The notes under the pieces were generated by a model. The model made no database searches, was not told where the DNA came from, and was given only the letters and a program-made list of their open reading frames with translations. Below are positions 1 through 13,486 of a stretch of 13,486 nt of DNA, one piece after another. Source of the DNA: a virus (taxonomy: Duplodnaviria; Heunggongvirae; Uroviricota; Caudoviricetes); the IMG/VR virus record IMGVR_UViG_2534681899_000005; one strand, given 5' to 3'. Both the position numbers and the translations under genes were made by a program. The first letter of the stretch is position 1. Each line of letters begins with the position of its first letter.

Positions 1-95
1 TTGGTGTGAACAGTCTTTCATGTTCTTTATGTATCAGTTGTCCTGTGTGGTGATTTGGTGGACTGCCCCAGGGGCCATACTTATGATGCCCGGTC
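1..95. repeat. Left copy of 95-bp terminal direct repeat
   Basis: Bases 1-95 are identical to 13392-13486. Contains CTGTGTGG and the inverted repeat GCCCCAGGGGC. The repeat is truncated by the window edge, so its true length may be larger. Confidence 0.9.
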
Positions 96-4592: not shown

Positions 4593-6719
4593 ATGGCAAT
4601 GAAGGAAGTCGCCAGACTAACAAACGTTATTTACTGGGATTCTGATAAATCCAGCTGGCGAAAAGAAGTTAAACGGCTTGAGGATTATAAAAAATCCTGG
4701 AAGAAAGCCACCGACGATATAGCTAAAGCGGATTTTAAATCGAATCAGGCTGTGCTCAGAACACAAAGAACACGCGCTAAGGTGGAAGAGCAGATTGCCA
4801 GAGCACAGAAGAAACAACGTGCTCAGGCTGTCAGCCGTCTGACCGGGGGCAATAATCCGGAGCTCTCCTCTATGCGCAAGTTCTACCAACAACAAGCCAG
4901 AGAAGCCGCCAGACAACAAAAACTGTTAGATCGTAGTGTTGGAGATGTTCAGCACAGAAAAGCACGTGTAGGGGCCAACAGTGCACGAATCAGCAGCATG
5001 TTTGATGGCTCCCTGGTTGCTCAGTTCCAATCCAGAATTCAGAGAGTTAATGCTGATTATGCTAAAGGGGCTATTAACCTGCAGACCTATAATCAGAAAA
5101 TGGCCCGACTCAGAGCTGAAATGAAGATGGCAACAGCAGAGGCCGGAAAATTTCAGAGCAGACTAGACAAAGCTGCGGTAGCAGGATCTAAGCTGCATGA
5201 CAACCTGGGGAAACTCAACTCCACACTTGGCAAGATAGCTATTGGCCTTACTGCCGCTGGCTGGGGTGTTCAGCGTGCTGTTAGTGGTGCTATGGGTAGC
5301 CTTGCAGATCGCAACAGTGCCTACTTCGGTTTGATGGCACAGAACAAGGATGATAAAGCCAAGACTGATCAGCAGATGGCTTTTATCAAGAACACAGCCT
5401 ACACCTACGGGATGGATGAGCGGGAGATGCAAGGTGGCTACATGCGCTTTGCTGCAGCTACCCCCACCATGAAGGAATCTGATAAGCAGGCTCTTTTTGA
5501 GGCTATGGCTATTAAAGGTCGCTCAGTGGGTGCTACTGGCGAGCAACAGAACAGGGCGCTTGTTGCGGTCCAACAAATGGCTTCAAAGGGAAAAGTTATG
5601 GCAGAAGAGCTGCGGGGCCAACTGTCAGAAGCCTTTGCAGGCTCACAACAGGATTTTCAACAGGCCGCTATTGATGCCGGAATCATCAAGAATGCCCAGG
5701 AATTCGATAAAGCCCTTAAAGATGGCAAAATCACCCTGGATAAGCTTCTCCCTTCTTTGGTGAAAATCTGGGGTGCTGCAAAAGAAACTAAAGCTTTTGC
5801 TGAATCCATGAAACAGCCAGAAGTAGCAATGCAGCGCATGAAAAACAGCTTTAACGAGCTGGCGATCCAGTTTATGGGTGTTGTAGATCCTGCAGATGGC
5901 GTTATTAGCTTATCTGAATCTCTGATCTCCATCTTCGAAGACCTCACTACTGATATGGACGGCAGCGGGAGCGCGGCAAAACAGTTTGGTGAGGCAGTCG
6001 GTGCTGCCATGCGGGAGATCATGTATTGGGTAGGCTTCGCTAAGGGATATATTGAGGTCAAGGCTAAAGAGTTCGGCATGACCGGATCAGAGGTTGGCGA
6101 GCTTATCGGGAAACTGGTAGTCGGCTTAGCTGGTCTGAAAGTTATTACCACACTGCTTTCCCCTCTAACCGGATTTGTTTCACTTGTCACCCAACTGATT
6201 TCTCTGATAGGCAAGATTCCAGGTCTGGGCAATCTCGTTAAGGGTGCAGGTGGTGCAGTCGCTGGAAGCCCAACAACAGCATTAGCCGCTGGCAGTGCCG
6301 CAGGTGTGGGTGTTGGTGTCGCTGGCGCACTGGGCGCTAAGACGGTAGGTGAGAAGTTCAGAGGATGGATGCAAAGCAAGGCTGATCAGTTCGGGGAGTG
6401 GGCTAAATCTAAAGGCCTGCTTAGCGATGAACAGGACGCTATGACCAAACCGGGGGCCTATAACCATAGCTACATCAACAAGGGAGCTTCTTTTAATCCA
6501 TATCCAACCATTAGCCCATCACGTCCTACTCCTAGCACTGGTACGGCTATTCAGAATGGTGGCTATCAACCTGCTCAGGTTAATGTGGTGCCTCAAGGTG
6601 AGATTTCCGGCAAATGGGAGATAACCATCGATGAGGGGGGAATTGCCAGGGTGATTCAGAAGGAAGTCAGCGATCAGTTGGATTGGAAAGCCACACAGGA
6701 ATCTAATCAGCTTTTCTAA
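4593..6719 (+). CDS. Phage tail tape-measure-like protein (708 aa)
   Basis: GAGGTG RBS then ATG 4593. N-terminal about 200 aa is Q/R/A/K-rich and coiled-coil-like; central ..GATGEQQNRALVAVQQMASKGKVMAEELRGQLSEAFAG.. resembles the conserved tape-measure core; C-terminal Gly/Ala-rich hydrophobic segments; no Walker A or catalytic motif seen. Confidence 0.6.
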   Translation: MAMKEVARLTNVIYWDSDKSSWRKEVKRLEDYKKSWKKATDDIAKADFKSNQAVLRTQRTRAKVEEQIARAQKKQRAQAVSRLTGGNNPELSSMRKFYQQQAREAARQQKLLDRSVGDVQHRKARVGANSARISSMFDGSLVAQFQSRIQRVNADYAKGAINLQTYNQKMARLRAEMKMATAEAGKFQSRLDKAAVAGSKLHDNLGKLNSTLGKIAIGLTAAGWGVQRAVSGAMGSLADRNSAYFGLMAQNKDDKAKTDQQMAFIKNTAYTYGMDEREMQGGYMRFAAATPTMKESDKQALFEAMAIKGRSVGATGEQQNRALVAVQQMASKGKVMAEELRGQLSEAFAGSQQDFQQAAIDAGIIKNAQEFDKALKDGKITLDKLLPSLVKIWGAAKETKAFAESMKQPEVAMQRMKNSFNELAIQFMGVVDPADGVISLSESLISIFEDLTTDMDGSGSAAKQFGEAVGAAMREIMYWVGFAKGYIEVKAKEFGMTGSEVGELIGKLVVGLAGLKVITTLLSPLTGFVSLVTQLISLIGKIPGLGNLVKGAGGAVAGSPTTALAAGSAAGVGVGVAGALGAKTVGEKFRGWMQSKADQFGEWAKSKGLLSDEQDAMTKPGAYNHSYINKGASFNPYPTISPSRPTPSTGTAIQNGGYQPAQVNVVPQGEISGKWEITIDEGGIARVIQKEVSDQLDWKATQESNQLF

Positions 6720-6792
6720 TGCTGGAAGATAGCGCAGCTTTACTGATATTGTGATCAAAATCAATAAGTTAGCCCGACCGGATAAACTCCAG

Positions 6793-6828
6793 GCAAGAAA
6801 AAAGCCCCTAAGTGTTAACAAAGGGGCT
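6793..6828 (-). terminator. Intrinsic terminator, clearest on the minus strand (possibly bidirectional)
   Basis: Stem AGCCCCT (6803-6809) / AGGGGCT (6822-6828) with a 12-nt loop. On the minus strand it is followed by TTTTTTCTT (complement of 6793-6802); on the plus strand only by CTCTTCTCC. Confidence 0.5.
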
Positions 6829-6849
6829 CTTCTCCGGTATCCTTTTGAT

Positions 6850-6964
6850 GCGGGGCGAACCTGCTAACAAAAATCAACCTCTCGCGAGACTAATGTTAGC
6901 AGGTTGCCGGAAGGTAAGTCAACTCCGGCCTATAAACCTTAAAGCGACTATAAAATCGCCCCGC
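6850..6964. other. Highly structured element with nested perfect inverted repeats (candidate structured RNA or protein-binding site)
   Basis: 9-bp outer stem GCGGGGCGA (6850-6858) / TCGCCCCGC (6956-6964) encloses a 10-bp stem CCTGCTAACA (6860-6869) / TGTTAGCAGG (6895-6904), whose loop holds the palindrome TCTCGCGAGA, plus hairpin GCCGGA / TCCGGC (6906-6929). Confidence 0.4.
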
Positions 6965-7246
6965 CAATTGTGATGATCCGACCTTTGAGGCGGGTCCGGT
7001 GCCCAGGGGGTGCAGTGATGCACAAACCAGGCAACGATAAACAGGCTAACAGTGATAGCGGCGCTCAATCAGCGCACTAAATCCTAACCAGTCCGGGAAA
7101 GAGGCTGGCTCTATCGACCGCTCATGCACGGGACAATGCATACCTGATAAAGGATTCTCACAAGGGACCAATCGCGAGAAAAGAAGTGGAAAGGGGCTGA
7201 TTTGTGGTGTATCACTACGGCCTCAAAAGAACACTATTGTCTTTTT

Positions 7247-7705
7247 TCAGCCTCTCCCCACATTTGACCAGTATTTGATTGCACCGATCAAATCATCATA
7301 GTGGCGCATTGCATCATTGAAGCCTTTATAGCTTGCCCATTGTGGGGAAACCTTGTTATTGCTGAATTGCCCACTAATCAGGATAGTCTCCAAAATGTCG
7401 GCGTATCGCTTGCCAATTCGCTTTCTGACGGCCTCAGAGCTCCCACCCTTTACGATTGCATTAATCAGGGCTTTTGTGTGTCTCAGGCTCTCATAGAGCA
7501 TTGCAGCGTGGGCAGATTCCATAAAGGAGCGCTTAGGCAGATCACCCCACCCCTCAGAATGAATTGCTGCCAGTGTGGCGTAATTCAGGCCGCTATAGTG
7601 TTTCCCGTCATCCCAGCCAACCGCTACACCTTCCATCTGTGAGAGCTCTTTATGCAGCTTATCCATCATGCGCTTGTCTATGGTGCAACGGACTTTCGGA
7701 CTCAT
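7247..7705 (-). CDS. Phage virion morphogenesis / head-tail joining protein (HK97 gp10 / Mu G-like), 152 aa
   Basis: Start overlaps the upstream stop by ATGA (7702-7705); motif ..NYATLAAIHSEGWGDLPKRSFMES.. resembles the Y-A-x-H-x-x-G...P-x-R-x-F signature of this family, recalled from memory. Confidence 0.4.
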   Translation of the reverse strand: MSPKVRCTIDKRMMDKLHKELSQMEGVAVGWDDGKHYSGLNYATLAAIHSEGWGDLPKRSFMESAHAAMLYESLRHTKALINAIVKGGSSEAVRKRIGKRYADILETILISGQFSNNKVSPQWASYKGFNDAMRHYDDLIGAIKYWSNVGRG

Positions 7706-8514
7706 TTGTTGATCTCCGTGATGTCATCGAGCAACATGTTGGCCTTATCAATCATCGTTTCGTGGAACTCATTCGACACAACAGACTTATCACCTGCGGC
7801 AATCTTTCCCGCTGCCTCTCCCTGTGCATATTCCCCGCGATGCTTAGCCCTGGTTGATTTCGTAGCAGCGTTGCCAGCGTTGCTACCCTCTTTAGCACTG
7901 TTAACAGCGCCCTTTTGCTGTGTTTTATTCACCTTCTTACTGTTAGTGAAAACTCCGGCATTTTCGACCATCTTCACCTTGAAGGTGCGGAATTCTTCAA
8001 AAGTGCAATCAATAGTGATGCAGTCACCAGAGGAAGAGCTACGCTTAACTTCACATTTCGTCATGATGAAGTTCTCAAGGAGTCCGGCATCTTCACTTAC
8101 CAGGCTAACTAGCTGGCGCTTGTCTCTCATTTCCATAAGTGCCTGAACAGCGGCAGCAGGGCGCATAGATTCACGGGGATTATCTGGATCAGTGTTCCGG
8201 TCGATGTAGTTCTCTTTCCGGATGATATGAGGGGAAGAGGTAATAATGCCCGTAAAGCTGACAGATTTATCTTTAATGACGGCATGGTCTGACATGGTGG
8301 TGCCATCCTCGACCGCATAGCTCGATTTCTCGACAGGGAACGAATAGCTGACATCAGAGATTGAGTCAAAGAAGATAGCCACGTTATCGGTATAGTTGAA
8401 GCCATCCATTATATTTTTGTTTTGTGAATATCCCCCACACATAACAGTGAATGCAGGAGATCTCGATTCAGCTTGTTTTGCAGCTGTCAGAGCATCACTA
8501 GCCATATTAAACAT
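7702..8514 (-). CDS. Hypothetical protein, possibly phage structural (270 aa)
   Basis: Long ORF in the capsid operon, translationally coupled to the next gene; C-terminal half is low-complexity K/A/G/N-rich; no family recognised. Confidence 0.45.
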   Translation of the reverse strand: MFNMASDALTAAKQAESRSPAFTVMCGGYSQNKNIMDGFNYTDNVAIFFDSISDVSYSFPVEKSSYAVEDGTTMSDHAVIKDKSVSFTGIITSSPHIIRKENYIDRNTDPDNPRESMRPAAAVQALMEMRDKRQLVSLVSEDAGLLENFIMTKCEVKRSSSSGDCITIDCTFEEFRTFKVKMVENAGVFTNSKKVNKTQQKGAVNSAKEGSNAGNAATKSTRAKHRGEYAQGEAAGKIAAGDKSVVSNEFHETMIDKANMLLDDITEINK

Positions 8515-8975: not shown

Positions 8976-10022
8976 TTATTTAGCCTTGGCTTTTGCCAGA
9001 GCAGCGGCGGCGGAGTTACTAACACTCACTTTAACCACAACTTCAGGCATCATGTTCATGAAAGCATAAGAGGATTCAATGAAGATTTCTCGTTTACCTC
9101 TGGACTCTTCCATATACATGAAAGCTTCACGTGCAGCGCCGTTTGCAAGCTTCAGGTTGCGAGCGCAAGGGCCGAAAAATTGAGTATAAACGCCCACCAT
9201 ATCGCCTAACGCATGCGGCTGGAACTGTGGGACCAGATAAGCAGTATTCTCTGGCAGACTATCCATTTGCACCACACGCAGAGCTAAGCCTGGAATGCGG
9301 AAAGTCGGGAAGCCCGGCAGAATATCCTCAGGGAACATCAGACCTTTATCGGTAATATTCTGATTGCCGAACAACAGCACTTTTCGCAACAGTTCATCAG
9401 TCTGAATTGCAGCAAAGAGTTCAGCACGGCAGAACAGGGTGAAACCACGCAGAGCACGAACGACACCACGCTGTTTAACCTTGCTCAGTGCAACCAGGTC
9501 CTGCAGTTGTTTGAGGATGTCTTGAGCTAGATCCACTTCAGAGGTGGACTGTTCCACGCCCAGCAGTTCGCACACATTCAGTTCTTTACCCTTGGTGAGG
9601 ATAATTTTGTTCTCAAAGAGAGCAAGCTGGCGTGCTTCTTCGTGGGTCTGGCGTAAGCCTTCACCCAACTGAATAACACGACGAGCGGTTACAGACTCTA
9701 AATTCTCTTCGGAATCTTTGCCCGGAACACGGATACCTTGCCAGTCAGAAGGATAAATAGCACTTGATGCGGCAGTGAATGCCATATCACCCGTGCCCGT
9801 TTCACGCTCATCTGCGGTAATGGTAGCCATCTGTTCACCGTAGCGCGGATACTGACCGAAAGCGGATTGTTTCACCTGGCGAACTTTGTCATATTCAAAT
9901 TTAAAGGTATTGCACAGAGCAGTAGTGTTGAAGATATCCATTGCTGAAATAATCTGGTTATCCAGCGGGATATCTTTAATCAGACCACACAGATCGCGAA
10001 CTTCGAATTCTTTCTTAGCCAT
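8976..10022 (-). CDS. Putative major capsid protein, lambda gpE-like (348 aa)
   Basis: ATG (complement of 10020-10022) with AAGGAGG RBS 6 nt upstream; the track ORF starts at in-frame TTG. Size and C-terminal segment (..KREIFIESSYAFMNMMPEVVVKV..) resemble lambda E-family capsid proteins as recalled; follows a ~110-aa gene as in lambda D-E. Not searched. Confidence 0.45.
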   Translation of the reverse strand: MAKKEFEVRDLCGLIKDIPLDNQIISAMDIFNTTALCNTFKFEYDKVRQVKQSAFGQYPRYGEQMATITADERETGTGDMAFTAASSAIYPSDWQGIRVPGKDSEENLESVTARRVIQLGEGLRQTHEEARQLALFENKIILTKGKELNVCELLGVEQSTSEVDLAQDILKQLQDLVALSKVKQRGVVRALRGFTLFCRAELFAAIQTDELLRKVLLFGNQNITDKGLMFPEDILPGFPTFRIPGLALRVVQMDSLPENTAYLVPQFQPHALGDMVGVYTQFFGPCARNLKLANGAAREAFMYMEESRGKREIFIESSYAFMNMMPEVVVKVSVSNSAAAALAKAKAK

Positions 10023-10033
10023 TTTCAACCTCC

Positions 10034-10369: not shown

Positions 10370-10667
10370 TTGATCACCTGCGATTTAAATTAACTCCCCT
10401 CAAAGAGTTCCGGTATAACCTCTCAAACCACGACAGGCTCGGGCCGAAAAGTTATGCCGGAAATCTAAAGGGAAATTGATACAAGGAGAGGGAGATAGCC
10501 CCGCACCGTCCAAGCGGGGGCTATTCCACATGGGGAAACCGACAACAGTCGGATGATAGTTCACAGTATGATTACGGTTACTAGAGAGCACTATCACGAA
10601 AGGCACTCCCCCGGATCAGTTCAGGCTGCGGTCACATCAGCGGGGAAATACCTTTCGGGATAGCTAC

Positions 10668-10701
10668 CCACACAGAAAACCCGCAAAAGAAAACTGTGTG
10701 G
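10668..10701. promoter_or_regulatory. Inverted repeat CCACACAG-N18-CTGTGTGG in the capsid-operon leader
   Basis: Perfect 8-bp arms at 10668-10675 and 10694-10701; lies in the roughly 480-nt leader between promoter and decoration gene; overlaps TGTGGATAA. Confidence 0.35.
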
Positions 10702-10850
10702 ATAACTAGCCCAATAGGAGAATTAATCGACCACTCAACGATGATCAGGGTAGTGTTATTTATAAGGCGGCACCGCTACCTGGTCGCCTTTACTTTGGAG
10801 GAAAATACGGCAAATCAAGATCTTCTCAAATGATATTGATTCCATACTAT

Positions 10851-10870
10851 ACTGTATATTATATCAGTAT
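10851..10870. promoter_or_regulatory. LexA-box-like palindrome (SOS operator candidate)
   Basis: Minus strand reads TACTGATATAATATACAGTA, which keeps CTG-N10-CAG with an AT-rich spacer (consensus TACTGTATATATATACAGTA); overlaps the -10 of the capsid-operon promoter. Confidence 0.5.
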
Positions 10871-10887
10871 TCTCTCAAATTGTCAAC
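10859..10887 (-). promoter_or_regulatory. Consensus sigma70 promoter for the leftward capsid operon (TTGACA-17-TATAAT)
   Basis: Minus strand reads gtgTTGACAatttgagagaatactgaTATAATat: -35 at 10882-10887, -10 at 10859-10864, exact 17-bp spacer. Confidence 0.6.
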
Positions 10888-11193
10888 ACCCTGATTATAT
10901 AAATTCTAATAATTAGCGTGGTAACTGTATTTTCAGACCTCTATCAATCCCATCAATACGTCACCCCACCCTTTAGATGCATACATCCGACCTACTTTGT
11001 AGGCTTGGCGTACTGCCAAGGTCGCAGCTATGCGACTCCTATCTATCACCACTTTATAAAGCTTGATAGATATCTTTTGATCAATATCAATGTTTTCCAG
11101 GGATTTACCCGGCTATAGTTCGAATCAAGGAAGGGGAGCATTGATAGCACCCAACCGAGCAAACAAATCAACTTCTCGCAAAAGGTGATAGTT

Positions 11194-11316
11194 ATGGGTA
11201 TCAAGAACAGTGCCAGCGCATGGCAAAAGGCCAGGTTTCATCACCCACACATTGTTAAGGCAATTGAGGTGGTTGGAGTTTTAGCCCTGATGTTAGCTCT
11301 GTGTGTGGAGGTGTGA
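11194..11316 (+). CDS. Hypothetical small hydrophobic peptide (40 aa)
   Basis: AAGGTGA RBS 6 nt before the ATG; translation MGIKNSASAWQKARFHHPHIVKAIEVVGVLALMLALCVEV has a C-terminal TM-like segment; its leader shares a 15-nt motif with the 173-aa gene leader. Confidence 0.25.
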   Translation: MGIKNSASAWQKARFHHPHIVKAIEVVGVLALMLALCVEV

Positions 11317-11380
11317 GATAGGCAAAGGAGGCAAAGCATTTTTTAATAGGTCTGGCAGTCTTAGATTTTGTATTAATCAT

Positions 11381-11423
11381 CATTGAGCGGAGTTTATGAA
11401 CAGCATTGAGAGGAGTTTATGAC
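11381..11423 (+). repeat. Tandem duplication of a translation-initiation region, with an 8-codon upstream ORF coupled by ATGA
   Basis: CATTGAGCGGAGTTTATGAA (11381-11400) is followed by a near-identical second copy (11404-11423, CATTGAGAGGAGTTTATGAC); mini-ORF 11396-11422 (MNSIERSL) stops at TGA overlapping the main ATG at 11419. Confidence 0.45.
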
Positions 11424-11679
11424 GGGGGCTAAAGATATCAGGAGACTGAGGGAAGAGCTGATAGCTGAAATTAAAGCTAAGGCAAAGCAAATGGAGATAG
11501 CCGCACAAATGGATGTAGCGGAACAGATGTACAAGATGGTTGAAGAGGGAACACCACGACAGGTTATCGCTAAAACCTTCGGTGTGGGGATCGCCACCGT
11601 GCACAGAAGGCTGAAAGCCTATGCCGACTACCACAATATCGAGAGAAAGGAGGATGGGAGATTTAAGAAGAATAAATAG
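11419..11679 (+). CDS. Small HTH DNA-binding protein (resolvase/Fis-type HTH), 86 aa
   Basis: GAGAGGAG RBS; coiled-coil-like N-terminus; C-terminal GTPRQVIAKTFGVGIATVHRRLKAY matches the Hin/resolvase-type HTH pattern; no recombinase catalytic domain. Confidence 0.5.
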   Translation: MTGAKDIRRLREELIAEIKAKAKQMEIAAQMDVAEQMYKMVEEGTPRQVIAKTFGVGIATVHRRLKAYADYHNIERKEDGRFKKNK

Positions 11680-11736
11680 TAGGAACAGTCCAACAGGTTA
11701 TTAACTAAATTCAACTTCTCGCAAAGGGGTACCATT

Positions 11737-12258
11737 ATGTTATTTCAGAAAGATAAAGAATCAGTAAATAAAAGGCTTTTTAAAGAACTGGTAAAAATGT
11801 TCTTTCAGTACACTGCAGCGTTTTTGATAGCCGGGCCTTGGTTAATGGCTATCTGTTTTTACCCTGCTACCTTGTTTATTGGCAGTAGCAAGTTCGGCGA
11901 TGGCCCGTTTCATGTGGATATTGGTTTTATAGATTCTCTCCTGATCCGTCCTATAAATGCTGTTCTCAATGCTTTCTACTTCCCCACTAGTCTAGAGGGG
12001 TGGGCGGTAACCTGGGGTGTTTTAGGCTTAGCATATGTATATTGGTTGGTTGGCTTTTTGTGGGGTGCAATCTGTGCTCTCCTCGATATTGATACAGGAT
12101 CAAGCCGTAGGAGTGGTGGTAATAATAGCGGAGCGGGTGTATATGCACATGTAGGCACCAGGGGAGCTAGTGTTACCGCAGGTACCCGATTCGCTGGCGG
12201 CTGGCTGAGCATAGGCAAACGCGGCGTTAGTTGGAGAAAAAGCAAAAAACTGTTCTGA
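11737..12258 (+). CDS. Hypothetical membrane protein (173 aa, 2-3 predicted TM helices)
   Basis: ATG 11737 with a leader containing TCAACTTCTCGCAAA; hydrophobic segments (AAFLIAGPWLMAICFYPATLFIG; GWAVTWGVLGLAYVYWLVGFLWGAICALL); Gly/Ser/Arg-rich tail; followed by a terminator. Confidence 0.5.
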   Translation: MLFQKDKESVNKRLFKELVKMFFQYTAAFLIAGPWLMAICFYPATLFIGSSKFGDGPFHVDIGFIDSLLIRPINAVLNAFYFPTSLEGWAVTWGVLGLAYVYWLVGFLWGAICALLDIDTGSSRRSGGNNSGAGVYAHVGTRGASVTAGTRFAGGWLSIGKRGVSWRKSKKLF

Positions 12259-12265
12259 CCTACCA

Positions 12266-12292
12266 GGGGGGCCATCACGGCCCCTTTTTATT
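12266..12292 (+). terminator. Rho-independent terminator
   Basis: GC stem GGGGCC / GGCCCC with loop ATCAC, followed by TTTTTATTTAT; 8 nt after the stop at 12258. Confidence 0.75.
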
Positions 12293-13391: not shown

Positions 13392-13486
13392 TTGGTGTGA
13401 ACAGTCTTTCATGTTCTTTATGTATCAGTTGTCCTGTGTGGTGATTTGGTGGACTGCCCCAGGGGCCATACTTATGATGCCCGGTC
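13392..13486. repeat. Right copy of 95-bp terminal direct repeat
   Basis: Exact match to 1-95 on the same strand. Confidence 0.9.

What the first reader, a model, noticed from the sequence alone, without database searches (positions are those of the whole stretch)
11165..11725. A 15-nt leader motif shared by two membrane-protein genes and echoed inside the structured element
TCAACTTCTCGCAAA occurs identically 12-13 nt upstream of the start codons of the 40-aa peptide (11168-11182) and the 173-aa membrane protein (11711-11725). A close variant, AAATCAACCTCTCGCG, lies in the loop of the nested element at 6871-6886, and TCGCGAGA recurs at about 7168-7175. This looks like a common operator or an RNA target site co-regulating the two membrane proteins, possibly by a trans-acting RNA from the 6850-6964 region.
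Basis: seen in the sequence. Interest (0 to 1): 0.55.

Follow-up and report, generated by a model that had tools for sequence, protein, structure and literature searches.

The report
Shared leader motif matching a plasmid antisense RNA
Two membrane-protein genes on a small phage-like E. coli plasmid carry the same short sequence just before their ribosome-binding sites, and it matches the end of a highly conserved non-coding RNA region elsewhere on the plasmid, so it is most likely the docking site of a new plasmid-encoded regulatory RNA.

Summary
TCAACTTCTCGCAAA occurs exactly twice, each copy ending 12 nt before a start codon, and AAATCAACCTCTCGC lies at 6871-6885 (3 matches against 0.01 expected). 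The window is a complete 13.4-kb circular E. coli plasmid carrying phage capsid and tail genes. All 29 complete or near-complete relatives I examined have exactly three same-strand copies of the core CAAC[T/C]TCTCGC: before the 40-aa peptide gene, before a swappable cargo gene, and in the spacer after the tape-measure gene. The third copy persists in two spacer types that share little sequence around it. In both it lies next to a minus-strand intrinsic terminator. The spacer is 96% identical between lineages whose genes are 65-83% identical, and its minus strand folds better (z -6.2 against -3.2). Best reading (about 0.55): a minus-strand RNA, either a 3'UTR-derived or an independently transcribed sRNA, pairs over 11-15 nt with both leaders just upstream of the Shine-Dalgarno and co-regulates the two membrane proteins. 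This is inferred from sequence only. There are no expression data and no strict compensatory covariation. A sequence-specific protein site remains the main rival. No Rfam family matches. It is a new member of a known kind.

The parts
11165..11182 (+). Leader motif copy 1 (AAATCAACTTCTCGCAAA; core CAACTTCTCGC at 11169-11179). It is followed directly by the SD AAGGTGAT and the ATG at 11194.
   Evidence: Identical in every relative, including lineage L134/L018, where the -60..-1 leader is only 75% identical overall.
11194..11316 (+). pep1, a 40-aa peptide with a hydrophobic C-terminal segment (MGIKNSASAWQKARFHHPHIVKAIEVVGVLALMLALCVEV).
   Evidence: The ORF length and pattern (MGIKNSA..HHPH..CVE[VF]) are kept in lineages with 68% DNA identity. 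No Pfam, PHROG or PADLOC match.
11419..11679 (+). 86-aa HTH_7-type protein encoded between the two motif copies. Its own start region lacks the motif.
   Evidence: Pfam HTH_7, E = 3.4e-6. Sequence read.
11708..11725 (+). Leader motif copy 2 (AATTCAACTTCTCGCAAA; core at 11712-11722). It is followed by the SD AGGGG and the ATG at 11737.
   Evidence: Conserved in front of three unrelated cargo genes. The variant ACAACCTCTCGCAAAGGAG occurs in L134/L018.
11737..12258 (+). Cargo gene, here a 173-aa polytopic membrane protein, ending at a plus-strand terminator (12265-12287).
   Evidence: Relatives carry a 195-aa secreted protein or a 186-236-aa secreted/membrane protein instead.
6871..6888 (-). Third copy. 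Read on the minus strand it is the anti-motif 5'-CUCGCGAGAGGUUGAUUU-3', complementary to AAAUCAACUUCUCGC (15 contiguous pairs with leader 1 including one G-U; 12 with leader 2).
   Evidence: It is the best or tied-best plasmid-wide pairing partner of the leaders. It is conserved in both spacer types.
6850..6964 (-). Three-way junction that presents the anti-motif. It has an outer stem (6850-6858 with 6956-6964), hairpin 1 (6858-6869 with 6894-6905, 24-nt loop) and hairpin 2 (6906-6929, loop containing GAGUUGACUU).
   Evidence: Minus-strand MFE and centroid. One outer-stem pair varies G-C, G-U, A-U when read on the minus strand.
6893..6922 (-). Possible internal sRNA promoter on the minus strand: TTGACT (6922-6917), 18 nt, TG-n-TAACAT (6898-6893). 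The predicted start falls at the first bases of the anti-motif.
   Evidence: 9/12 match with TG. The same TTGACT lies 29-31 nt from the anti-core in type B. This is inconclusive, because the hexamer is also the loop of a hairpin whose stem differs between the types.
6795..6838 (-). Minus-strand intrinsic terminator: stem GCCCCU/AGGGGC (6804-6809 with 6822-6827), then U6 (6803->6798). On the plus strand no T-run follows the stem.
   Evidence: Read. Paired in the MFE. The analogous terminator directly follows the anti-motif in type-B plasmids.
6790..7246 (-). Highly conserved non-coding region (3' trailer of the leftward structural operon) that contains the anti-motif.
   Evidence: About 99% identical among 10 plasmids while the flanking CDS are 92-94%. 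96.4% identical to L134, whose CDS are 65-83% identical. Minus strand -168.8 kcal/mol, z -6.2; plus strand -151, z -3.2. No Rfam hit.
10858..10886 (-). Perfect sigma-70 consensus promoter (TTGACA-17-TATAAT with TG) for the leftward operon, whose 3' end is the conserved non-coding region.

Best explanation
The 11-15-nt motif is the docking site for a plasmid-encoded antisense RNA that acts in trans. The RNA is made from the minus strand of the spacer after the tape-measure gene. It arises either as the processed 3' end of the leftward capsid/tail operon or from its own promoter just upstream. It ends at the intrinsic terminator at about 6798. Its anti-motif GCGAGA(G/A)GUUGA(UUU) pairs with both leaders from about -27 to -13 relative to each AUG, directly abutting the Shine-Dalgarno. 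This co-regulates translation, and probably stability, of the 40-aa membrane peptide and the cargo membrane or secreted protein. The HTH cistron between them lacks the motif. I favour repression by blocking 30S access, so that membrane-protein output is tied to the level of the structural-operon transcript. What is shown: the three-copy architecture, its conservation, the complementarity, the minus-strand terminator, and the strand asymmetry in folding. What is inferred: that the RNA is made, that pairing occurs in vivo, and the sign of the effect.
For: (1) There are three same-strand copies against 0.00-0.01 expected. (2) All 29 complete or near-complete family plasmids examined carry exactly one copy in each of the three places. 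(3) In diverged lineages the motif is an island of identity. L134 leader 1 keeps 30 nt exactly in a 75%-identical leader. L134 leader 2 keeps only the motif and the SD in a 47%-identical spacer. (4) The third copy is kept in two spacer types that share little sequence around it. In type A it is in a hairpin loop about 40 nt before a minus-strand terminator. In type B it is directly 5' of a minus-strand terminator hairpin plus U-run. The type-B terminator stems differ between L127 and L131/L136, yet the anti-motif is constant. (5) The minus strand folds better than the plus strand. Single sequence: -168.8, z -6.2, against -151, z -3.2. Alignment fold: -148 against -137. Variable pairs tolerated: 5 versus 3. 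Variable pairs broken: 4 versus 6. (6) In an unbiased scan of both strands of three plasmids, excluding the leaders' own antisense, the minus-strand spacer element is the best or tied-best partner for 5 of 6 leaders and second for the sixth (z -4.4 to -6.7). Net cofold gain is -9 to -15 kcal/mol for cognate pairs. (7) Variation is wobble-compatible. Type A has G opposite the leader U (G-U). The only lineage with C at that leader position carries type A, giving G-C at -24 kcal/mol, against -16 with a type-B RNA. (8) The leaders are unstructured (z about 0), so the site is accessible. (9) Terminator hairpin plus U-tail is the usual 3' module of enterobacterial sRNAs (established knowledge, not tested here).
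Against: There are no transcript data. A same-sense third copy is equally what a sequence-specific protein would need. There is no true compensatory double change between seed and target, only one wobble-compatible difference, and the core is otherwise invariant. The candidate internal promoter is mediocre in type A and weak in type B (-10 CACACT). Its -35 hexamer doubles as a conserved hairpin loop. Two variable pairs in the larger region favour the plus strand. The high conservation of the whole 450 nt may have another cause, such as a packaging site. The direction of regulation is unknown: the leader mRNA could act on the 3' trailer rather than the reverse.
Confidence: 0.55

Rival explanations
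1. The motif is a recognition site for a sequence-specific protein. This could be an RNA-binding translational regulator acting on plus-strand transcripts (both leaders, plus the read-through 3' end of the tape-measure operon as a third site or decoy). It could instead be a DNA-binding protein such as the 86-aa HTH or a helper-phage factor.
For: All three copies have the same orientation and the same invariant 11-nt core. An HTH gene lies between the two leader copies. No plus-strand terminator precedes the third copy, so it could be transcribed on the plus strand. Two variable pairs in the spacer favour plus-strand folding.
Against: The motif has no dyad or direct-repeat substructure (read directly). 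It abuts the SD rather than a promoter. This model gives no reason for the third copy to sit next to a minus-strand terminator in both spacer types. ATCAAT repeats clustered in the divergent promoter region are better operator candidates for the HTH. No multi-copy occurrence of the motif was found in any contig of IMG/VR.
Confidence: 0.2
2. The motif is an intrinsic translation-initiation element (an enhancer or ribosome standby site, or a weak anti-SD that pairs with the purine-rich SD). It was copied along with the initiation region. No trans factor is involved and the third copy is a relic.
For: The position relative to the SD and AUG is fixed. The CUUCUC/UCGC part can form short local hairpins with the SD in some leaders. 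The element shows another duplicated initiation region (23-nt tandem repeat 11378-11422).
Against: The local hairpins are weak and differ between leaders, and the leaders' fold z-scores are about 0. The third copy has no usable ORF. The ATG at 6893 lies inside a 12-bp stem, and type B has none. A relic would not stay invariant in two diverged spacer types across 29 plasmids.
Confidence: 0.12
3. The repeats are recombination or module-junction sequences that allow cargo-gene swapping.
For: Three unrelated cargo genes follow copy 2. L136 shows a hybrid leader with a junction just 3' of the motif.
Against: Conservation runs through to the ATG, and the junction in L136 lies downstream of the motif, so the motif is not the crossover point. 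Copy 1 precedes a non-variable gene. Three direct repeats would delete essential segments if recombined. No recombinase catalytic domain is present.
Confidence: 0.05

Closest known systems
Satellite phage P4 immunity: CI RNA (seqB) pairing with seqA and seqC (own knowledge)
   Same: A mobile, phage-dependent element uses a short RNA segment complementary to two repeated target sequences in its own operon. The two targets flank other genes.
   Different: In P4 the regulator is processed from the same transcript and strand as its targets and causes premature transcription termination. Here the regulator would come from the opposite strand of another operon 4.3 kb away, and the targets abut ribosome-binding sites. 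No Rfam match at E <= 1, including any C4/CI-type family in the library.
P1/P7 c4 antisense RNA acting on the icd-ant mRNA (own knowledge)
   Same: A plasmid-prophage RNA with short complementary segments that mask a ribosome-binding region.
   Different: c4 is co-transcribed with its target. There is no sequence or Rfam similarity.
Type I toxin-antitoxin pairs with limited trans complementarity (tisB/IstR-1, zorO/OrzO, shoB/OhsC) (own knowledge)
   Same: A small hydrophobic peptide gene whose 5' leader carries a roughly 12-20-nt site complementary to a small RNA.
   Different: In those systems the antitoxin gene lies next to the toxin gene. Here it is 4.3 kb away and also targets a second, unrelated gene. 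pep1 toxicity is unknown, and pep1 matched no family in Pfam, PHROGs or PADLOC.
3'UTR-derived Hfq-dependent sRNAs of enterobacteria (CpxQ, DapZ, SroC, MicL) and the prophage sRNA DicF (own knowledge)
   Same: The seed lies just upstream of the mRNA's own intrinsic terminator with a U-tail, with a possible internal promoter or processing. It targets the initiation regions of several mRNAs in trans.
   Different: It is carried on a plasmid and aimed at the plasmid's own genes. In type A the seed is displayed in a large hairpin loop, as in plasmid copy-control antisense RNAs. Hfq dependence was not tested.

Membership tests
Trans-encoded base-pairing sRNA with mRNA-leader targets | Contiguous complementarity between the RNA and the target at or near the ribosome-binding site | tested here: met
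   11-15 contiguous pairs ending 1-4 nt before the SD.
Trans-encoded base-pairing sRNA with mRNA-leader targets | Regulator strand ends in an intrinsic terminator with a U-tail | tested here: met
   Minus-strand hairpin plus U6 at 6838->6798. The analogous terminator follows the anti-motif in type B. The simple scanner missed it because the loop exceeds 8 nt.
Trans-encoded base-pairing sRNA with mRNA-leader targets | Own promoter or defined processing site that yields a discrete small RNA | tested here: inconclusive
   TTGACT-18-TGnTAACAT in type A and TTGACT-17-CACACT in type B both place the start at the anti-motif. The matches are weak, and the -35 hexamer is also a hairpin loop.
Trans-encoded base-pairing sRNA with mRNA-leader targets | Seed and target conserved together, ideally with compensatory changes | tested here: inconclusive
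   Both are invariant in 29 plasmids. The only variable position gives G-U, G-C or A-U and never a mismatch, but only one lineage is informative.
Trans-encoded base-pairing sRNA with mRNA-leader targets | The RNA is expressed and changes target expression | not testable with these tools
   No transcriptome or reporter data were available.
Type I toxin-antitoxin system | Small hydrophobic toxin peptide under 60 aa | tested here: met
   pep1 is 40 aa with a hydrophobic C-terminal stretch and is conserved as an ORF. Toxicity was not tested.
Type I toxin-antitoxin system | Antitoxin RNA gene overlapping or immediately adjacent to the toxin gene | tested here: not met
   The complementary element is about 4.3 kb away, after the tape-measure gene.
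Type I toxin-antitoxin system | Similarity to a described toxin or antitoxin family | tested here: not met
   No Pfam, PHROG or PADLOC hit for pep1. No Rfam hit.
P4 CI / P1 c4 immunity RNAs | Regulator processed from the same transcript as its two targets | tested here: not met
   The third copy has the same sense as the targets, so pairing requires the opposite strand.
P4 CI / P1 c4 immunity RNAs | Match to the curated covariance model | tested here: not met
   Rfam 15 scan of the whole window at E <= 1 gave only a terminator-like ctRNA_p42d hit at E = 0.25.
HTH repressor operator | Dyad-symmetric or tandem half-sites overlapping a promoter | tested here: not met
   The motif has no internal symmetry and sits between the putative promoter or upstream gene and the SD.
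HTH repressor operator | Binding by the 86-aa HTH protein | not testable with these tools
   Requires a gel-shift or footprint.

The most novel reading that the evidence does not exclude
The roughly 450-nt conserved minus-strand RNA is a new structured regulator of an undescribed family of plasmid-borne phage satellites. Its 3' module would couple transcription of the capsid/tail operon to expression of a small membrane peptide (a lysis or toxin function) and a swappable exclusion or defence cargo. The two discrete spacer types (A and B) would act as specificity or immunity alleles, analogous to P4 or P1 RNA immunity but in trans and between operons.
Probability: 0.2. Interest if true: 0.75.

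Novelty: new member of a known kind. Interest (0 to 1): 0.55.

Why it matters
If confirmed, this would be a self-contained RNA regulatory circuit in a common but undescribed E. coli/Shigella plasmid family. The tape-measure search returned 420 proteins at E <= 1e-10. The 120 listed are all at least 84% identical, and nearly all sit on contigs of about 13-14 kb. The plasmids carry capsid and tail genes but no detected terminase or portal, which is what a phage satellite looks like. The circuit would show how such an element sets the output of membrane proteins separately from the regulator encoded between them on the same mRNA. It would also give a conserved 11-nt handle for reporter assays, for RIL-seq-type searches for host or helper targets, and for engineering. 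The spacer's conservation, well above that of the flanking genes, marks it as the most constrained part of the plasmid.

Tried and rejected
1. Signal shared with a helper phage. An exact 15-mer scan of IMG/VR gave 106 single hits, about the chance number, and no contig with several copies. The two hits that looked leader-like (L077, L088) lie inside a coding frame.

2. Known RNA family. Rfam found nothing on the window or on a type-B spacer.

3. Spacer shared with a phage (cos-like). There was no blastn match in 50,697 phage records. In complete E. coli genomes the only matches were the plasmid family itself plus a 33-nt hairpin in a chromosomal island.

4. More distant relatives for covariation. 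Capsid-protein searches of viral, genome and metagenome collections returned nothing or only near-identical plasmids. Capsid and HTH protein families are confined to E. coli/Shigella at 81% identity or more. Extra contigs added no new motif variants.

5. Third copy as the leader of a hidden ORF. The ATG at 6893 is inside the hairpin stem, and type B has no ORF.

6. Upstream ATT-initiated extension of pep1. It is broken by a 48-nt insertion in relatives and is absent in L018.

7. Sigma-70 promoter in or at the motif. None was found.

8. Function of pep1 and cargo. No hits in Pfam, PHROGs or PADLOC.

9. A complementarity scan allowing G-U pairs was too noisy to reveal further targets.

10. Two literature searches found no description of this plasmid family.

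Full report
**What the window is**

Bases 1-95 repeat exactly at 13392-13486, so the window is a closed circle of 13,391 bp.

It encodes these features:
- an iteron-type replication module: four 22-nt repeats at 432-542 and a Rep/DnaD-like protein at 1661-2590;
- a rightward operon ending in a 708-aa tape-measure protein at 4593-6719 (PHROG 5255, E = 1e-193);
- a leftward operon driven by a perfect TTGACA-17-TATAAT promoter at 10886-10858. It encodes a 111-aa protein, a major head protein (8976-10028), a Dit-like protein (7702-8514) and a tail-completion protein (7247-7705).

I detected no terminase or portal.

Near-identical circles of 13.2-14.3 kb are annotated as E. coli plasmids (91-96% identity). 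Protein searches show a populous but narrow E. coli/Shigella family. No phage record matches at the DNA level. The tape-measure protein has only about 26% identity to rV5-like phages. The gene content fits a plasmid-borne, phage-dependent (satellite-like) element, but I did not test that.

**The observation**

TCAACTTCTCGCAAA is exact at 11168-11182 and 11711-11725, and each copy ends 12 nt before an ATG.
- The first ATG opens a 40-aa peptide with a hydrophobic C-terminus (pep1, 11194-11316).
- The second opens a 173-aa polytopic membrane protein (11737-12258).
- Between them lies an 86-aa HTH_7 protein, whose start region lacks the motif.

The third, same-strand copy AAATCAACCTCTCGC at 6871-6885 sits in a 24-nt hairpin loop. 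Framed as AAATCAACYTCTCGC with up to 1 mismatch, the window has 3 matches against 0.01 expected. The 11-nt core CAACYTCTCGC has 3 against 0.00. The TCGCGAGA 'echo' is really at 7172-7179 and is within chance for an 8-mer.

**Conservation**

Every family member I could assemble has exactly one core copy in each of the three places, all on one strand: 29 complete or near-complete plasmids.

The strongest evidence comes from diverged lineages:
- In L134/L018 the coding DNA is 65-83% identical to the window. Leader 1 still keeps ACAAATCAACTTCTCGCAAAAGGTGATAGT exactly within a 75%-identical leader.
- The 34-nt spacer before a different cargo gene in L134 keeps only AAATACAACCTCTCGCAAAGGAG.
- Copy 2 precedes three unrelated cargo genes in different plasmids.

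So selection acts on the motif itself and on its position abutting the Shine-Dalgarno.

**The third copy and its surroundings**

The spacer between the convergent tape-measure and tail-completion genes (6720-7246) is the most conserved part of the plasmid.
- It is about 99% identical among ten plasmids whose flanking genes are 92-94% identical.
- It is 96.4% identical to L134.
- Its minus strand folds to -168.8 kcal/mol (z = -6.2), the plus strand to -151 (z = -3.2).
- An alignment fold gives -148 against -137. More variable pairs stay paired on the minus strand (5 against 3) and fewer break (4 against 6).
- One outer-stem pair of the three-way junction runs G-C, G-U, A-U when read on the minus strand.

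A GC-rich hairpin at 6804-6827 is followed by six U only on the minus strand (6803->6798). So leftward transcription ends there, about 40 nt beyond the loop that carries the complement of the motif.

A second spacer type (type B: L127, L128, L131, L136) shares little sequence with type A around this point, but it still contains CTCAACTTCTCGCC. There the complement GCGAGAAGUUGAG lies immediately 5' of a minus-strand terminator hairpin plus U-run. That hairpin differs in sequence between L127 and L131/L136 while the anti-motif does not.

In both types a TTGACT hexamer lies 29-31 nt upstream on the minus strand. With TAACAT (preceded by TG) or CACACT as the -10, it would start transcription at the first bases of the anti-motif. 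I regard this as a possible internal promoter only. The hexamer is also the loop of a hairpin whose stem differs between the types.

**Pairing**

Read on the minus strand, the type-A loop pairs 15 contiguous bases with leader 1 (one G-U) and 12 with leader 2. Type B pairs 12 perfect bases with each.

I scanned both strands of three plasmids in 40-nt windows, excluding the leaders' own antisense. The minus-strand spacer element was the best or tied-best partner of five of six leaders and second for the sixth (z -4.4 to -6.7). Net cofold gains are -9 to -15 kcal/mol for cognate pairs.

The leaders show no significant structure of their own (z about 0), so the site should be accessible.

The single variable core position behaves as pairing predicts. 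Type A has G opposite the leader U. The only lineage with C in a leader carries type A, giving G-C at -24 kcal/mol, against -16 with a type-B RNA. That is one informative lineage, so it is suggestive only.

**Mechanism proposed**

A minus-strand RNA ending at about 6798 pairs with both leaders at about -27 to -13, inside the 30S footprint. It could be the 3'UTR of the capsid/tail operon (possibly processed) or a short sRNA of about 90 nt in type A and 50-60 nt in type B.

I favour translational repression, possibly with decay, of the two membrane-directed cistrons. This would allow discoordinate control within one polycistronic mRNA.

Activation by opening the weak motif-SD hairpins seen in some leaders is possible. 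So is the reverse direction of control, with the leader acting on the 3' trailer or its terminator.

The anatomy, conservation and complementarity are shown. Transcription, pairing in vivo and the sign of the effect are inferred.

**Rivals**

- A sequence-specific protein (RNA- or DNA-binding) would also require same-sense copies and cannot be excluded. Against it: the motif lacks symmetry, it is not at a promoter, and this model does not explain why the third copy always adjoins a minus-strand terminator. The ATCAAT repeats clustered at 10835-11145 (6 of the window's 22 copies, against 12.4 expected overall) are better operator candidates for the HTH.
- An intrinsic translational element or a recombination junction fails to explain the invariant third copy. 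The junction visible in L136 lies 3' of the motif.

**Comparison with known systems**

The logic resembles P4 CI RNA with seqA/seqC, P1 c4, trans-type type I antitoxins (IstR-1, OrzO), and 3'UTR-derived enterobacterial sRNAs. These comparisons rest on my own knowledge.

Membership in each specific family fails at least one defining test:
- the regulator is on the opposite strand and in another operon (unlike P4 and P1);
- it lies 4.3 kb from the peptide gene (unlike type I TA loci);
- no Rfam, Pfam, PHROG or PADLOC match was found.

It is best filed as a new member of the general class of trans-acting base-pairing RNAs on mobile elements.

**Verdict**

The operator idea is not supported. Confidence in the antisense mechanism is about 0.55, pending a simple Northern blot or RNA-seq and a compensatory-mutation test.

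Noticed in passing
window 1-95 and 13392-13486; whole window: The window is a complete 13,391-bp circular plasmid with a terminal assembly overlap. It carries capsid, tape-measure, Dit-like and tail-completion genes, but I detected no terminase or portal. The family is common in E. coli/Shigella, always at about 13-14 kb, and I found no description of it in two literature searches. It looks like a plasmid-borne phage satellite.
   Followed up: partly
window 6790-7246: This non-coding spacer is more conserved than any gene (96% against 65-83% to lineage L134). It is strongly structured on the minus strand (z -6.2) and has no Rfam match. It comes in two discrete types (A and B) that share little sequence. 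Only its 3' module is explained here. A packaging site or a larger structured RNA is possible.
   Followed up: partly
window 11317-11398: Relatives encode a second small peptide (26 aa, MGKGGKAFLIGLAVLDFVLIIIEMSL) right after pep1. In the window it is broken by ATG->ATA and an extra T. Other lineages have an unrelated acidic 35-aa peptide there, or none.
   Followed up: partly
window 11378-11422: A 23-nt tandem duplication of the HTH gene's ribosome-binding region creates an 8-codon mini-ORF (11396-11422). Its stop overlaps the HTH start (ATGA). The duplication is absent in three relatives.
   Followed up: partly
window 10835-11145: Six of the window's 22 ATCAAT/ATTGAT hexamers cluster in the 310-bp divergent promoter region, together with a CCRGGG-N5-CCCGG inverted repeat near 11098-11113. 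These are candidate operators for the 86-aa HTH protein.
   Followed up: no
window 10370-10886 and 1287-1340: The leftward operon has a perfect consensus promoter followed by a roughly 490-nt untranslated leader that is nearly invariant over 10560-10810 in close relatives. A 54-nt stretch around this promoter is 74% complementary to a promoter-like region at 1287-1340 that faces the Rep operon.
   Followed up: no
window 11737-12258; L004, L005, L125, L134: The gene after leader 2 is a swappable cargo. It is either a 173-179-aa polytopic membrane protein with a DUF4236-like tail, a 195-aa secreted protein, or a 186-236-aa secreted/membrane protein. The last two share a CKD..GNDRW motif. None matches a known family.
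   Followed up: partly
window 7080-7112; L152 6001-6033: A 33-nt hairpin of the conserved spacer (AATCCTAACCAGTCCGGGAAAGRGGCTGGCTCT) recurs at 97% identity in a chromosomal island next to tRNA-Gly in two cat E. coli isolates. The island also carries ImmA/IrrE and integrase genes.
   Followed up: partly
L127 4594-4743; L128 11764-11913; L136 11655-11804: Type-B plasmids carry an extra 49-aa, very basic protein gene with its own consensus-like promoter, between the spacer and the tail-completion gene.
   Followed up: no
window 6880-6889: The type-A loop contains a perfect 10-nt palindrome, TCTCGCGAGA, which could allow loop-loop self-pairing of the RNA. It is absent in type B.
   Followed up: no
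NZ_CP043822 (L014); L137: One 39.6-kb 'plasmid' record is a head-to-tail trimer of the 13-kb unit, with one degraded copy. An 18.6-kb contig contains an inverted partial duplicate. These are either real multimers or assembly artefacts.
   Followed up: no
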